Assembly: GCA_016928955.1 (NCBI GenBank) | Contig: JAFGJV010000005.1 | Location: forward strand, 1-44,832 | DNA: 44,832 nt | Direction: 5' to 3' | Source of the DNA: Spirochaetales bacterium | GTDB taxonomy: Bacteria; Spirochaetota; Spirochaetia; Treponematales; UBA12059 | Shown here: piece by piece, positions 6,001-12,000 of the stretch | Layout: each line of letters starts with the position of its first letter | Position numbering within the stretch: the stretch's first letter is position 1 | Position numbers: made by a program

Positions 6001-9000
6001 CGCGAATCCGCGAACATGATGACTCCGCGCTCGTTCGGAAGCCTTTTGGCCAAATCCCTGACCACGGCGGCATAGCGAGACGCCGGGGCGTCGGTTTCCT
6101 GGGCGTCAGGAGACAGGCCGGGAACCGGCGGCCTAACGGGCGCCTGGGGCCAGAGTACGGACAGGGACAGGCGCCTTTCGTCGTCCCCCTGAACGATATC
6201 CACCGCGCGCTGTTTGTATACCGCGGCACCGTCCGGAGCGCGGCTCAGCTCAGCTCCGCCAACAAAACCGGCCGCCGCCTCTGGGTCGCGGAGGGTCGCC
6301 GACAAGGCCACGCGCTGGTACTCTCCGGCCAGTTCGGCCAGCATGCCCAGTGAGCAGGCCAGAAGGGTGCCGCGCCTGCCGCCCAGCACCGCGTGCAGTT
6401 CGTCCACCACGGCCAGCTTGACCGATGCCAGAAGGCCGCGGCCGCTTTTGGACGCCAGCATGATGGCCAGGCTTTCCGGCGTGGTGCAGAGCACGGATGG
6501 CGGGTGTTTGAGTATGCCACGGCGCTCTGCCGCGGCAGTGTCGCCAGAACGCGTGGCCACCCGTACCTTGGGAAAAGCCTGCCCTCGATCAACAAAAAAG
6601 CGTTCCAGGCCACGGACAGGGTCCAGGAGATTCAGGCGTATGTCCTCGTTCAAAGCTTTAAGCGGCGACACGTACAGCACGGACAGCGCGTTCGCGTCCA
6701 GGTCCCCGGACGCGAACCCGGACAGGGCGTGAAGAAAGGCTGCCAGGGTCTTGCCCGAGCCCGTAGGAGCCAGGGCCAGCACGTGGCGGCCCCCAGCTAT
6801 ACGTTCCCAGGCGCTGGATTGGACGGCGGTCGGCCTTCCTTTGGCCGTACTGAACCAGGCGGCGACCAGGGGGTGGAACGACGATGGGATGCCGGCGCAC
6901 ATACGGTCATGGTAGGGCCGCAAAGCCTGAAAGCGCAAGCGGCATCAGGTTGCTTTCCGGCTCAGACGCCGCGCACCCTGGTTTTGGGAGCCACGCGCCT
7001 GATGATGTCCGCCAGGTCCTTGAGCCGGGCCTCCGTCACAGGCCCAACCCGCTCCGCCCACGCCGGATCCAGTACGCGGGCCGAGCGGTATGCCTGGAGT
7101 ATCACCTGGTCGTCAGGGCGGAAATAGGGGGCAACAGCCTCAGCGTCATCCGGGCCAAAAATGCCTGGGGCGCAGGTTATCCGGAACTCGTAGGGTACGC
7201 CCATGGAGCGGATCACGTCCATGCTCCTGGCCACCCGTTCCGCGGCGTCCGCCGGTGCTCCCGGCCACAGCTCGCCGTAGCGCACCAGGGCCGTCTTCAC
7301 GTCCATGGCCACGTAATCCAGAGACAGTACTTCCAGGCGTTCGGGCTGGGAGCCGTTGGTGTCCAGCTTGACTGCGTAGCCCAGGCGGCGCGCGTCCGCC
7401 ACCAGCTCGGGCAGACAGGAAGTCATGGTGGGCTCGCCCCCGGATATAACCAGGCCCGTAAGGAGGCCCCGCCGTTGTTCCAGATGGGCCCTGAGCTCGG
7501 CCCAGGTCTGGCCCGCCGCGCCGGCTCTGTTGAGCGCCAGGTCGGGATTATGGCAGTACAGACAGCGGAAATTGCAGCCGGCCAGAAAGGCCACCGCCGA
7601 CACCCGGCCGGGATAATCGACGAGGCTCAAAGGCTGTATCCCGACGCGGACCGAGTCCAGGTCGGGCGCTTTCACACCGCGGCGCTTTCCCGGACGGGCG
7701 CAAGGATGGCCTTGAGCTGGCCCGTGGTGTACGCGCGGGCGCATTCCTCCCCGTCGGCGTCCATCAGCACGGCCGTCGGCGTGGCCATGATGTCATAGGC
7801 GCGGGCAAGCTCGATGCCCTCGTCCGCGTCCACGTCCACAACATGGCCTTCAAGGGCCGTGGTCGCCAGATAGTCGCGCACGGGCGGGCAATTGTGGCAG
7901 GAACGGCGGGTAAAGAGCAGCCAGGACTGGGCGGGCTTGCCCGTATCCACCCGCCTGGTTCTCCCGGGTTCGGACGGCGCCGGCGCCTCGAAACCCCTGG
8001 TCTCGGCGCCCGGGAAGGAAAATTCCATTCGCTTGCCGAATTCCTCGCGTTTGCCGGCGTTCCAGTTCCTCACCGAGCGGTAGTAGCCCACAATGCGGGT
8101 ATATACCTCCGTGGGCGTTCCCTCGACCGACAACAGCTGCGTTTTCAGCTCGGCCAAACGAGCTTCTTTTACTTTCCGTGCGTCCATCGTTCCCCTCCCA
8201 GTGCTTGTTCTTCTATCCGTGCTAACGGCGTTCCCGCCGCGGGCAAGCGCGATCGCAGGTTCCCGGCATCAGAAACCGGCTAGCTCACGTTCCAGAATGG
8301 CTATTTCCTCCCGGATCCGAGCTTCCTTCTCCGCCTTGCATTTGGGGCAGGAGAAGTGCTCGCCGGCCACGTATCCGTGTACGGGGCACACGGAGAACGT
8401 GGGCGTGACCGTGTAGTAGGGAATGCGGTAGCGCGACGCCACAGCTCGCACCAGATCCCTCACGGCGCGCCAGTCCTCCACCGCCTCGCCCAGGAACATG
8501 TGGAAGACGGTGCCGCCCGTGTAGCGCTTCTGAAGGGACTCCTGGTGGTCCAGGGCGGCAAAGAGGTCGTCCGTGTGGTCAACGGGAAGCTGGGTAGAGT
8601 TGGTGTAATACGGCTCGTCCCCGCCGGCGCTAATGATTTCCGGATACCGGGACTTGTCGTGCTTGGCCAGGCGGTAGGACGTGCTCTCGGCCGGCGTGGC
8701 CTCCAGGTTGTACAGCTCTCCGGTGTCCTCCTGCAGGTCAGAGAGCCGCTGGCGTAAATGGTCCAGCACTTCCTCCGCAAAGGCCTTGCCTTCGGGCGCC
8801 GCCAGGCCCTTGCTCAGGAAATTGAGACAGCACTCGTTCATGCCCACCAGGCCTATGGTGTTGAAATGGTTGTCGAAATTCTTGAGATAGCGCTTTGTGT
8901 ATGGAAACAGGCCGCCATCGAGCAGCCGGGAGCACACCTTGCGCTTGATGGTCAGGCTCTTGGCCGCCAGGTCGGTCAGCCTGTCCAGGCGCTTATAGAA

Positions 9001-12000
9001 TTCCCCCTTGCCCTCGGACAGGTAGCCTATCCTGGGCAGGTTCAGGGTAACCACGCCGATAGAACCGGTCAGCTCGTCAGAGCCAAAAAGTCCGCCGCCG
9101 CGCTTGCGCAGTTCCCGCTTGTCCAGCTGGAGGCGGCAGCACATGGAGCGTACGTCGCCGGGGTCAAGGTCCGAGTTGACGAAATTCTGGAAATACGGCG
9201 TGCCGTACTTGGCCGTCATCTCGAACAGCAACTGGGCGTTGGGACTGTCCCACTCAAAATCCTTGGTAATGTTGTATGTCGGTATGGGATACTGGAAGCC
9301 CCTGCCGTCGGCGTCGCCGCCGAGCATGAGCTGAATGAACACACGGTTGACGGTGTCCATCTCCGCCTGGCAGTCGCCGTAGGTGAAATCCTGCTCCTTG
9401 CCTCCCACCACGGCCGGCCTGTCCCGCAGGTCCGGCGGGCACACCCAGTCCAGCGTGACGTTGGTAAAGGGAGCCTGGCTGCCCCAGCGGCTGGGCGTGT
9501 TCACCCCGAACATGAAGGACTGGATGCACTGCTTGACTTCCTCGTCCGACATGGCGTCGACCCGGACGAAGGGTGCCAGGTAGGTGTCGAAACTGGAAAA
9601 AGCCTGGGCTCCGGCCCACTCGTTCTGGAGTATGCCCAGGAAATTGACCATCTGCTGGACCAAGGTGGACAGATGCTTGGCCGGCGAGCTGGTGATCTTG
9701 TCAGGCACTCCGCCAAGGCCCTCGGCTATCAGCTGGCGGAGCGACCAGCCGGCGCAGTACCCTGAGAACATGGACAGGTCGTGGATGTGAAAGTCCGCGT
9801 TCTTGTGCGCCTCGGCAATTTCCTCGGGATAGATGTTCTTGAGCCAGTAGTTGGCGGTGACGCTGCCGGAATTGTGGAGGATGAGGCCGCCCAGGCTGTA
9901 GTTGACATTGGCGTTTTCCTTGACGCGCCAGTCCACCTGGGCCAGGTAGCCGTCCATGGTGGAGCTGATGTCCAGCATCAGTTTTTGGGCGTCGCGGACG
10001 GCCTGGCGTTTTGCCCGGTAGAGTATGTACGCCCTGGCCACTTCGGCCTCCCGGGCTTCTATCAGGGCCATCTCGACCAGGTCCTGGATCTCTTCTATGG
10101 CTGGTATCGAATTCGGGTGGCGCCCCGACTGGAGAAGCCCAAGGCGGGTTTCCACGTCGGTTACGATGCGCTCCACCTGGTCCCTGTCCGCCACGCCCCG
10201 GACCGCGCGGAAAGCCTTCTCTATGGCGGCCGCTATCCTACCGCGGTCATAGCGCTCCACGGAGCCCGAGCGCTTGGCCACCCATCGGCCGCCGTCGTCC
10301 GAAGCTCCAAGAAAAGACTTCCATTCAGGAAAAACGTCCCCTGGCTCGCCCATGCCTAATCCCCCCCGCGAGCGCTCTCCAAGCGCTCGATTTCTTTTAC
10401 GAATTCGTCCATCGACTCGAATTTGCGGTACACGCTGGCAAAGCGTATGTAAGCCACCTTGTCCAGTTCGTAGAGTTTGTGCAGGGTCATGCGGCCCAGT
10501 TCTGCGGAAGGCACCTCGTTAGTGCCCTTGCCCACCATGGCGGCCTCGTCCTCTATCTCGTTGAGGATATTTTCTATGGTAAGCTGGGAAACAGGCCGCT
10601 TCTCAAGGGCCCGCGACAAGCCACGCTCAAGTTTGGCGCGGTCAAAGGGCTCACGCCGCCCGTCGCGCTTGACGACCATCAGCGGCTTTTCCTCGATGCG
10701 CTCGTAACTGGTGAAGCGGAAACCGCACGCCAGGCACTCCCGCCTGCGGCGTATGCTCTCGCCATTGGCGAGCGTGCGTGAATCTATAACCCTGTCGTCC
10801 ATGGACAGGCAGTGGGGGCATCTCACGGCGCGGGAACCTCCGAAACGTGCTCAGCGGAAAACAGACGGGCGTTGCCTAACTTGGTATGGTTCTTGCATTG
10901 CCACGCATACTACAAATGGTGGATACATAGCACCTACCCCACATGATATAGTGGGTCAGCTAGGTCCTGTCAATACTGAAAGAGGACGTAAACCGATTAA
11001 CGAATGTAAATTTTCTATAGCCCATCCTGGGCCCAAGCCCGCGCCCTGGCCAAAACACGTCAAAGCTTCGTACCACCGAACAGGAATGTGCGAAGAACGC
11101 TTGCCTTTTTGTCTCCACGGGGCGAATGTAATGGAGACACAGGCATCCGTGCCTGGCCGGTATCACATTACCCATACGGCTCGTCCGTTCAAGGAGGACA
11201 ATCCATGGCTTTTTCCGACAAGATCAAAACCATCGTCGAGCAAAGTTTGGCCGCGTCCAAGGAAATTCTGTCCAAGGTGGGCGACAAGGCCCAGCAGTGG
11301 GGCGAGCTGGGCGTGCTGAAGATGGAAATTGTCCAGCTCCGGTCCCAAGCACAGAAGCTGACCGCAAAGCTCGGGGCCATAGTCTACGAAACCCTGGTCG
11401 AGAAGGGCCAGCAGTCGGTCACCAAGGATTCCCCGGCCGTGAGGGAAACCCTGGCCCAGCTGTCCGCCTTGGAAACCCAGATTGACGACAAGGAAGCACT
11501 CTTTGCCACCAAGGGCGGCAAGGAAGACGACCTTAAGGACGACGATATCAGGTGAGTCCCCGCGGGGGCCGCCGGCATCCCAAGGCCGGCGGCCCTTACG
11601 CCGTTTCCTTCTTGCCTATCCTGCACACGTACATGGGCCCGGAGCCACCTGCCTTGTCGGGCAGGAACAGAAGTCCATAGTCCGTGCGCTCGGCGCCCTC
11701 AACATCTTCAGGCGCGTCCAAGAACACATCCTGCCCATATTTTTTCACGAGCCTGGACACGGGGCCGTCGTTTTCCTCGGGGGACAGGGCGCAGGTAGAA
11801 TACACCAGCGACCCACCGGGGGCCAGCATGAGGAAAGCGCTGGACAAAAGAGCCCACTGTCTCTGGGCCAGGAAACGCACCCTGGCCGGCGTCCACGCGT
11901 CCAGGGCACTCTGGCTTGCGAGCACATGGCGCTCGCTTGAGCAGGGAGCGTCGAGCAGTATGGCCCTGAAGCGGCCGCGCTCGCTGGGCCTCCCCCCGGC

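What a model noticed while it worked through the whole genome (the two positions that open the first line are those of the whole stretch)
7672..10353. Class III ribonucleotide reductase split into a catalytic chain and a small glycyl-radical chain fused to a thioredoxin- [...]
The anaerobic RNR NrdD is encoded as two genes between nrdR and the activase nrdG. g00350 (694 aa) holds the ATP-cone, catalytic barrel and zinc site (Pfam NRDD positions 1-532 of 562). g00349 (171 aa) lies 81 nt downstream behind its own ribosome-binding site. It carries the last 30 NRDD positions with the glycyl-radical loop, followed by a thioredoxin/glutaredoxin-like domain with a CxxC motif. The radical-bearing element is thus a separate small subunit with a built-in redoxin. 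The split is conserved across Treponematales and common in metagenomes, so it is not an assembly error.
Evidence so far: Translation. Pfam: NRDD 1-532/562 on g00350 and 532-562/562 on g00349, plus weak thioredoxin/glutaredoxin hits at residues 91-160. PDB thioredoxin match at 97-150. 85 of 120 other Treponematales genomes match g00349, most in open frames of about 180-220 aa and about ten in frames of 720-945 aa (the fused form). In 5 of 5 relatives' loci the large chain ends at query residue 692-693 and the small ORF starts 30-60 nt later, in another frame in 4 of 5. Predicted complex: ipSAE 0.75 against a best control of 0.00; runs agree in at least 81% of contacts; partner pLDDT at least 72; this mark is reached by 51 of 78 solved complexes and 2 of 108 mismatches. 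The pass may reflect likeness to solved si [...]
(Added by a program. Inside this text positions count along the whole contig: contig position 1 is position 1 of the stretch shown here. "Call 12" and the like, gene names such as g00115 and contig names such as C1 are that model's own, and its searches are not shown. The text may have been shortened before it was handed on; [...] marks where a part breaks off. The agent that wrote the report below was given it as the finding of a first reader that could run no searches.)

Follow-up and report, generated by a model that had tools for sequence, protein, structure and literature searches.

The report
Two-piece anaerobic ribonucleotide reductase
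This spirochaete builds the oxygen-sensitive enzyme that makes DNA building blocks from two separate proteins, with the fragile radical-carrying loop on a small protein that also carries a thioredoxin-like domain, an arrangement that is conserved in its relatives and that I did not find described in print.

Summary
Confirmed. NrdD is two genes: a 694-aa catalytic chain ending after the zinc site, and a 171-aa chain with the radical glycine (Gly34) and a thioredoxin-fold CxxC domain. Independent contigs keep the stop. Of 105 matching genomes of the order, 85 are split side by side (gaps -4 to 290 nt, all frames), 10 have the genes apart (95-600 kb in 7 closed genomes), 6 are one-chain, 4 undecidable. 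Frameshift, read-through and decay are thereby excluded as the general explanation. New here: both chains carry matching heptad helices (82 of 85 pairs), probably an antiparallel coiled coil; a second spirochaete lineage and two Proteobacteria use a bare 45-65-aa peptide; extra peptide genes occur alone in genomes and in 10 of 10 virus records searched whole. Active-site motifs are NrdD2-type, fitting a tethered reductant, but a methionine leaves formate open. Nine paper searches found no description; a 2026 review knows spare parts only for formate lyases. This scan already noted the same arrangement on other DNA, including two spirochaetes.

The parts
10907..10954 (-). Two NrdR-box-like sites, 32 bp apart (10954-10939 and 10922-10907), the first overlapping a likely -10 region behind TTGACA (10973-10968)
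   Evidence: 12/16 and 11/16 matches to a consensus recalled from memory; the only such tandem pair in the window; spacing fits about three helix turns (PMC9110341 passages)
10356..10826 (-). nrdR, transcriptional repressor
   Evidence: TIGR00244 above cut-off
8269..10353 (-). Large chain of class III RNR (694 aa): ATP cone, barrel, zinc site, C-terminal helix; no glycyl-radical loop
   Evidence: PF13597 1-532/562, PF03477, NF006126
10003..10281 (-). ATP cone (residues 25-117)
   Evidence: PF03477 E 3e-20
9754..9756 (-). Cys200 on strand A (GYCAGW)
   Evidence: motif position; aligns with the YC of T. maritima NrdD
9133..9144 (-). Finger-loop motif M404-C405-C406-R407
   Evidence: MCCRL in 100 of 100 large chains of the order
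8701..8703 (-). Glu551 (EATPAE), candidate active-site proton donor of NrdD2-type enzymes
   Evidence: NLEATPAE in 95 of 100; aligns with a Glu of T. maritima NrdD
8338..8388 (-). Zinc site C656-x-x-H659 ... C669-x-x-C672, wholly on the large chain
   Evidence: these four residues invariant in 69 aligned chains
8272..8337 (-). C-terminal heptad helix of the large chain (673-694), proposed docking helix
   Evidence: helix 670-693 at pLDDT 90-97; hydrophobic at +7, +11, +14 in 83 of 85
8188..8268 (-). 81-nt spacer with Shine-Dalgarno GGAGG at 8198-8194
   Evidence: sequence; spacers not conserved between relatives
7672..8187 (-). Small chain (171 aa): docking helix, glycyl-radical loop, variable linker, thioredoxin-fold domain
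8125..8181 (-). N-terminal heptad helix of the small chain (3-21)
   Evidence: helix 3-20; pattern in 84 of 85
8086..8088 (-). Gly34 of RIVGYY, the predicted radical site
   Evidence: invariant in 69 of 69; the motif aligns with RIVG ending at Gly621 of T. maritima NrdD, named as the radical glycine in PMC4493059
7681..7926 (-). Thioredoxin-fold domain (88-169) with C97-H-N-C100 and Thr136-Pro137
   Evidence: C97, C100, P137 invariant in 69 of 69
6962..7675 (-). nrdG activase; its GTG start overlaps the stop of the small gene (GTGA)
   Evidence: TIGR02495 NrdG2 above cut-off; sequence

Best explanation
A working class III ribonucleotide reductase made of two polypeptides. The cut lies in the short turn that normally joins the zinc site to the glycyl-radical loop. 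Each new end has gained an amphipathic helix, and the two helices pair as an antiparallel coiled coil that re-creates the link without a covalent bond (inferred, about 0.8). NrdG installs the radical on Gly34 of the small chain; Gly34 passes it to a finger-loop cysteine (C405/C406) of the large chain, as in one-chain NrdD (by homology, about 0.9). Turnover leaves a disulfide with Cys200, which the tethered thioredoxin domain re-reduces, itself recharged by the genome's thioredoxin reductase (inferred, about 0.6). Because oxygen cuts glycyl-radical enzymes at the glycine, the layout lets the cell remake a small chain instead of a 77-kDa one (inferred, about 0.45). Shown: gene layout, conservation, fold, motifs. 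Not shown: binding, radical, activity, reductant, exchange.
For: Complementary, non-overlapping Pfam coverage, no other NrdD in a 99.5%-complete genome. 95 of 105 matching genomes split; genes 95-600 kb apart in 7 closed genomes while the large chain stays 70-72% identical and keeps its helix in 10 of 10. Both helices in 82 of 85 adjacent pairs, absent from the plain one-chain forms L058, L089, L104, L165, L166, L168. Positions +11 (large) and -15 (small) swap: I/L 53, L/I 22, I/I 8, L/L 0 of 85. Third Cys plus Glu define NrdD2 (PMC4493059 passage), whose reductant is thioredoxin (PMC9176816 table). CxxC in 83 of 85 small chains; thioredoxin reductase above cut-off in the genome; a redoxin fused to an RNR subunit works as its reductant in class I (PMC6187632 passages). 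One-chain NrdD-redoxin fusions branch outside or at the base of this lineage. Extra stand-alone peptide genes in cells and viruses.
Against: No experiment. Met404 is present in 100 of 100, and such enzymes are said to hold the parts for either formate or thioredoxin (PMC9669993 passage). The redoxin is missing in 10 genomes of the same lineage and in the whole second lineage, and one Cys is lost in L087, so it is dispensable or replaceable. The I/L swap falls in about two clades only, so it is weak as covariation. Cleavage at Gly34 would leave residues 1-33, with the docking helix, bound to the large chain; that stump must be displaced for repair to work. One-chain forms sit inside split clades (L104, L058/L105), so the split is reversible and may be near neutral. 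The genome also has a B12-dependent class II RNR, so essentiality cannot be argued here.
Confidence: 0.75

Rival explanations
1. Two-chain enzyme, but formate is the reductant; the thioredoxin domain does something else (keeps the zinc or finger-loop cysteines reduced, serves NrdG activation, or is a passenger).
For: MCCR methionine in 100 of 100 (PMC9669993). Redoxin-less small chains in 10 genomes of the lineage and in the second lineage.
Against: Glu plus third Cys are kept (95 and 100 of 100); CxxC and cis-Pro positions invariant in 69 of 69 at 27% mean column identity; the fusion persists in one-chain and split forms across classes.
Confidence: 0.3
2. The split is a neutral gene fission that was fixed because the halves still bind; it gives no oxygen-repair benefit and the subunit is never exchanged.
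For: One-chain forms are nested among split ones; only 6 of 83 matches in a Bacillota sample are short, so most anaerobes do without it; the cleaved stump keeps the anchor.
Against: The cut recurs at the same place in three sequence lineages and one clade of all split forms is rejected (p-AU 6e-5); extra peptide genes, a tandem duplicate (L147) and virus-borne copies without a large chain show that the small piece alone is selected for.
Confidence: 0.4
3. One continuous protein is made by stop read-through, frameshifting, bypass or splicing.
For: In this window the spacer is in frame, behind a single TGA, with no further stop; 12 of 32 in-frame spacers are open.
Against: 53 of 85 pairs are out of frame and 20 of the 32 in-frame ones hold more stops; all three stop codons are used; gaps run from -4 to 290 nt; only 25 of 1830 spacer pairs are alike, mostly close kin; genes up to 600 kb apart.
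Confidence: 0.02
4. A broken gene or an assembly error.
For: The genome is a 59-contig assembly and has a second, class II RNR.
Against: Independent contigs keep the stop; conserved in 95 of 105 genomes with invariant catalytic residues; intact regulator and activase.
Confidence: 0.01

Closest known systems
One-chain class III RNR NrdD with NrdG, NrdD2 type (T. maritima 4COI/4U3E; N. bacilliformis); also P. copri 8P23, S. thermophilus 9D3X, phage T4 1H78
   Same: Barrel, ATP cone, strand-A Cys, CCR finger loop, Glu, zinc site, RxxG loop, NrdG and NrdR.
   Different: [quoted passage not shown]
GrcA/YfiD of E. coli and Y06I of phage T4 (autonomous glycyl-radical cofactors of pyruvate formate-lyase)
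   Same: Small free-standing protein that carries the radical glycine in trans; virus-borne copies exist.
   Different: Those rescue a one-chain enzyme after oxygen cleavage; here the partner never has its own loop, so the small chain is an obligatory subunit. It matches NRDD, not a PFL-type domain. A 2026 review knows spare parts for formate lyases only.
Split class II RNR NrdJa/NrdJb of Pseudomonas aeruginosa
   Same: Natural two-gene RNR whose small C-terminal chain carries the disulfide-exchange function.
   Different: Class II, B12-dependent; the radical source stays with the large chain. That paper calls it the only split RNR found in a non-viral organism (2015).
Glutaredoxin-RNR fusions (Facklamia ignava Grx-NrdB; one grx::nrdD in Lachnospiraceae bacterium TWA4)
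   Same: Redoxin fused to an RNR component; shown to be the reductant in F. ignava.
   Different: N-terminal fusion to a class I radical subunit; that survey lists one NrdD fusion and no spirochaete.
Fragmented phage RNR genes (Aeh1 nrdA-a/nrdA-b; intron, intein or decayed nrdD in phages)
   Same: RNR chain encoded in two pieces; Aeh1 stays functional (PMC3045599 seen as listing only).
   Different: Caused by homing endonucleases, introns or inteins at other sites; no mobile element in the spacers here, and the radical loop is not the piece set free.

Membership tests
Class III RNR (NrdD) | NRDD barrel with strand-A and finger-loop cysteines | tested here: met
   PF13597, TIGR02487 and NF006126 above cut-off; C200, C405/C406
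Class III RNR (NrdD) | Glycyl-radical loop (RxxG) and zinc site | tested here: met
   Gly34 on the small chain aligns with T. maritima Gly621; zinc ligands on the large chain
Class III RNR (NrdD) | Radical loop at the C-terminus of the catalytic polypeptide (one chain) | tested here: not met
   two genes
Class III RNR (NrdD) | Radical-SAM activase NrdG | tested here: met
   TIGR02495 above cut-off, adjacent
Class III RNR (NrdD) | Glycyl radical and NTP reduction | not testable with these tools
   needs EPR and activity assay
NrdD2 subtype | Third active-site Cys and Glu | tested here: met
   MCCRL 100 of 100, NLEATPAE 95 of 100; definition from PMC4493059 passage; the defining paper itself was not held
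NrdD2 subtype | Thioredoxin rather than formate as reductant | tested here: inconclusive
   fused redoxin and TrxR present, but Met404 present
Thioredoxin-fold redoxins | Fold, CxxC at the start of the first helix, cis-Pro motif | tested here: met
   family cut-offs of Pfam and NCBIfam not reached, so no named subfamily
Thioredoxin-fold redoxins | Disulfide reductase activity | not testable with these tools
   needs assay
GrcA/YfiD autonomous glycyl-radical cofactors | Free-standing small protein bearing the radical glycine | tested here: met
GrcA/YfiD autonomous glycyl-radical cofactors | Copy of the PFL C-terminal domain | tested here: not met
   no PFL-type family at E<=0.1; only NRDD and redoxin hits
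GrcA/YfiD autonomous glycyl-radical cofactors | Partner is a complete one-chain enzyme repaired after cleavage | tested here: not met
   the only NrdD of the genome lacks the loop
GrcA/YfiD autonomous glycyl-radical cofactors | Restores activity after oxygen damage | not testable with these tools
   needs reconstitution

The most novel reading that the evidence does not exclude
Many MCCR-type class III RNRs have turned the oxygen-labile radical loop into a small exchangeable subunit, more than once. This spirochaete form is a combined radical-plus-reductant cartridge docked by a coiled coil, and the stand-alone 45-75-aa genes in chromosomes, prophages and hundreds of viruses are spare or takeover cartridges for the host enzyme: the first replaceable glycyl-radical part outside pyruvate formate-lyase.
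Probability: 0.45. Interest if true: 0.85.

Novelty: new variant of a known kind. Interest (0 to 1): 0.72.

Why it matters
Class III RNR is described as one chain that oxygen destroys by cutting at the radical glycine. A natural two-chain form makes three open questions testable: whether spare parts exist beyond formate lyases (raised as open in PMC8683613 and PMC13450708); which reductant the majority MCCR-plus-Glu enzymes use, since the candidate comes fused; and how NrdG engages its substrate, since the substrate is a small soluble protein rather than a buried loop. It also explains a large class of tiny genes annotated as 'anaerobic ribonucleoside-triphosphate reductase' or 'hypothetical', and warns that such large chains will be inactive if expressed alone.

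Tried and rejected
The scan of genome contigs with the single small protein found one irrelevant 21-residue match. The promoter scan found no sigma-70 site and no terminator above chance; the TTGACA and boxes come from reading the sequence. RNA-library contigs cover parts of the locus but cannot show transcription, starts or levels. Open-frame length as a sign of fusion was rejected (3 long frames are split). Start codons of small genes were chosen partly by Shine-Dalgarno match, so the count of 84 of 85 with a match is not independent. The count of at least 7993 short clusters may include contig-end fragments and is not used as a count of genes. Helix covariation is confounded by descent. Trees were quick searches with midpoint roots; rejecting one clade does not tell independent splits from re-fusions. 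The search of earlier findings by sequence gave nothing. Wei et al. 2014 was not held; one supplementary file of PMC6187632 was not searchable; bioRxiv supplements and subscription papers were not seen, and a description could lie there or in RNRdb. Selenocysteine or Trp read-through of the TGA, and an intron in the spacer, were considered and rejected as general mechanisms.
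Full report
Observation. On the - strand lie nrdR (10356-10826), a 694-aa ORF (8269-10353), an 81-nt spacer with GGAGG, a 171-aa ORF (7672-8187) and nrdG (6962-7675), whose start overlaps the small gene's stop. 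Pfam NRDD covers positions 1-532 on the large and 532-562 on the small protein. The large chain has Cys200, M404-C405-C406-R407, Glu551 and the zinc site C656/H659/C669/C672, then ends in a helix. The small chain has a helix (3-20), the RIVG motif whose Gly34 aligns with the radical Gly621 of T. maritima NrdD, a variable linker and a thioredoxin fold with C97-x-x-C100. The genome holds no other NrdD, one class II RNR and a thioredoxin reductase. Contigs from other studies keep the stop and spacer without gaps. Two NrdR-box-like sites 32 bp apart precede nrdR; the consensus used is recalled.

Conservation in the order. 105 of 151 genomes match the small protein. I read the locus in all 105: 85 split side by side, 10 with the small gene next to nrdG and no large gene nearby, 6 one-chain (3 with the redoxin), 4 cut by contig ends. 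Among the 85, gaps run from -4 to 290 nt (median 61), frames are 0/+1/+2 in 32/21/32, stops are TGA/TAA/TAG in 37/36/12, and a CxxC is present in 83. Spacers are not conserved (25 of 1830 pairs alike among 61 spacers) and 20 of 32 in-frame spacers hold further stops; this window's spacer is one of the 12 open ones. In the 10 separated cases the large chain was found elsewhere in all 10, 70-72% identical and ending in the same helix; in the 7 single-contig genomes it lies 95-602 kb from the small gene, twice on the opposite strand. These small chains lack the redoxin; one is on public record under Treponema denticola, and redoxin-bearing ones under T. brennaborense, T. socranskii, Gracilinema caldarium and Leadbettera azotonutricia, all named simply as the reductase or as hypothetical. 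At 50% clustering, 160 clusters match the full small-chain profile at E<=1e-30, the best 150 all 125-345 aa long.

How the pieces join. In one-chain relatives the zinc site is followed within four or five residues by the EVY strand (L058, L089, L104, L165, L166, L168). In split pairs each side of this turn has a helix with hydrophobic residues in heptad spacing, both present in 82 of 85 pairs and kept in 10 of 10 distant large chains. Geometry calls for an antiparallel pair; positions +11 and -15 swap Ile and Leu with no Leu/Leu among 85, but in only about two clades. L105 is one-chain with a short helical insert at this site. The complex could not be folded here, so the coiled coil is an inference.

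In a phylum sample 155 of 301 genomes match the loop; of the 150 listed matches (40 more not listed) 94 lie in frames of at most 125 aa, 44 in 126-299 aa and 12 in 600 aa or more. Of 40 loci picked for reading, 21 are a second lineage (large chain about 50% identical, ending C-x-x-H...C-P-x-x-H plus a tail; bare 45-66-aa peptide; nrdG), 7 are the redoxin form in other orders and classes, 5 are one-chain, and 7 are stand-alone peptide genes, several among phage-like or conjugation-like genes; L147 has two peptide genes in tandem. Of 152 plasmid records with a match I read 3: Ralstonia (685 + 58 aa) and Bradyrhizobium (678 + 63 aa) are split, Acidiphilium is one-chain. In a Bacillota sample only 6 of 83 matches are short. 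Viral contigs gave at least 472 relatives; in the 80 loci kept, 78 motif hits sorted as 58 stand-alone, 12 near a contig end, 4 beside a truncated large chain and 4 inside full NrdD. Ten virus records searched whole, 8 rated complete, hold only the loop part, one of them twice. A tree of 68 large chains rejects one clade of all split forms (p-AU 6e-5) and puts one-chain redoxin fusions outside or at the base of this lineage and some one-chain forms inside it. The simplest reading is fusion of the redoxin first, then fission with helix gain, then loss of the redoxin and gene separation in one treponeme clade; re-fusions and independent fissions cannot be told apart without a root.

Mechanism. 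By homology NrdG makes the radical on Gly34, which relays to a finger-loop cysteine. The third Cys and the Glu mark NrdD2, the thioredoxin-using subtype, and a tethered redoxin on a linker of 47-124 residues is the natural reductant, as in the class I Grx-NrdB fusion. Against this, Met404 keeps formate possible and the redoxin is dispensable in other lineages. The repair idea follows from oxygen cleavage at the glycine and from the extra peptide genes; against it, the cleaved stump would keep the docking helix.

What is known. Nine full-text searches found no description of this split. I saw passages, not whole texts, of PMC9669993, PMC4390871, PMC6187632 (and one supplement row), PMC9531940, PMC545781, PMC2795772, PMC11226230, PMC12662201, PMC4493059, PMC13450708, PMC4520616, PMC9110341, PMC8683613, PMC9176816 and PMC3653736; PMC3045599 only as a listing. 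PMC4520616 (2015) calls NrdJa/b the only split RNR found in a non-viral organism; PMC13450708 (2026) says spare parts are known only for formate lyases, though it sets class III RNRs aside; PMC3653736 lists phage nrdD genes interrupted by introns, inteins or decay. Subscription papers, including the NrdD2-defining paper, were not available. This scan's own notes report the same arrangement on other DNA, in spirochaetes, archaea and a phage; they are unchecked and are not counted as support.

Verdict. Real, conserved, functional by strong genetic argument; a new architecture of a known enzyme class, working like a permanent version of the GrcA/YfiD spare part but not a member of that family. 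Interest 0.72.

Noticed in passing
L096:2765-3049, L100:1756-2046, L103:1731-2024: The redoxin-less treponeme small chains end in a C-D-C-P-P or C-N-C-D-C-P-P stretch, perhaps a remnant of the CPNCPP motif or a cysteine tail for disulfide exchange; absent in L102 and L093.
   Followed up: partly
L130-L156, L164 (large chains): In the second lineage the zinc site reads C-x-x-H ... C-P-x-x-H (two Cys, two His), and in about a third of the chains my pattern for the Glu motif found no match.
   Followed up: no
L101:4368-4847: A second, degenerate copy of the small gene (shortened helix, one Cys of CxxC missing) about 4 kb from an intact copy; L087 has the same one-Cys form as its operon copy.
   Followed up: no
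L139, L141, L143, L144: Stand-alone radical-loop peptide genes among genes that look, by eye, like transposable-phage, phage replication or conjugation genes in spirochaete genomes.
   Followed up: partly
L184:3680-4114 (KP703175.1, ANMV-1 virus): An archaeal virus encodes a 144-aa protein with two CxxC pairs followed by the NrdD radical loop, with no large chain within 4 kb; some viral peptides (L224, L227, L250, L262) also carry cysteines before the loop.
   Followed up: partly
L167, L169: One-chain NrdD of the second lineage with a long acidic linker exactly at the split site: a likely re-fusion or precursor.
   Followed up: partly
L175 (G223:C1:1172175-1174097): A second, divergent NRDD gene (950-aa frame, ACCRL, own nrdG) in a genome that also has the split form.
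   Followed up: no
window 24786-33338 +: A 2850-aa protein with a lipoprotein-like start and bacterial Ig-like domains, a likely surface protein.
   Followed up: no
window 2484-6938 -: Lhr-type large helicase directly downstream of nrdG in the same direction.
   Followed up: no
window 324-2408 +: A divergent second elongation factor G (below the EF-G equivalog cut-off, above a subfamily cut-off).
   Followed up: no
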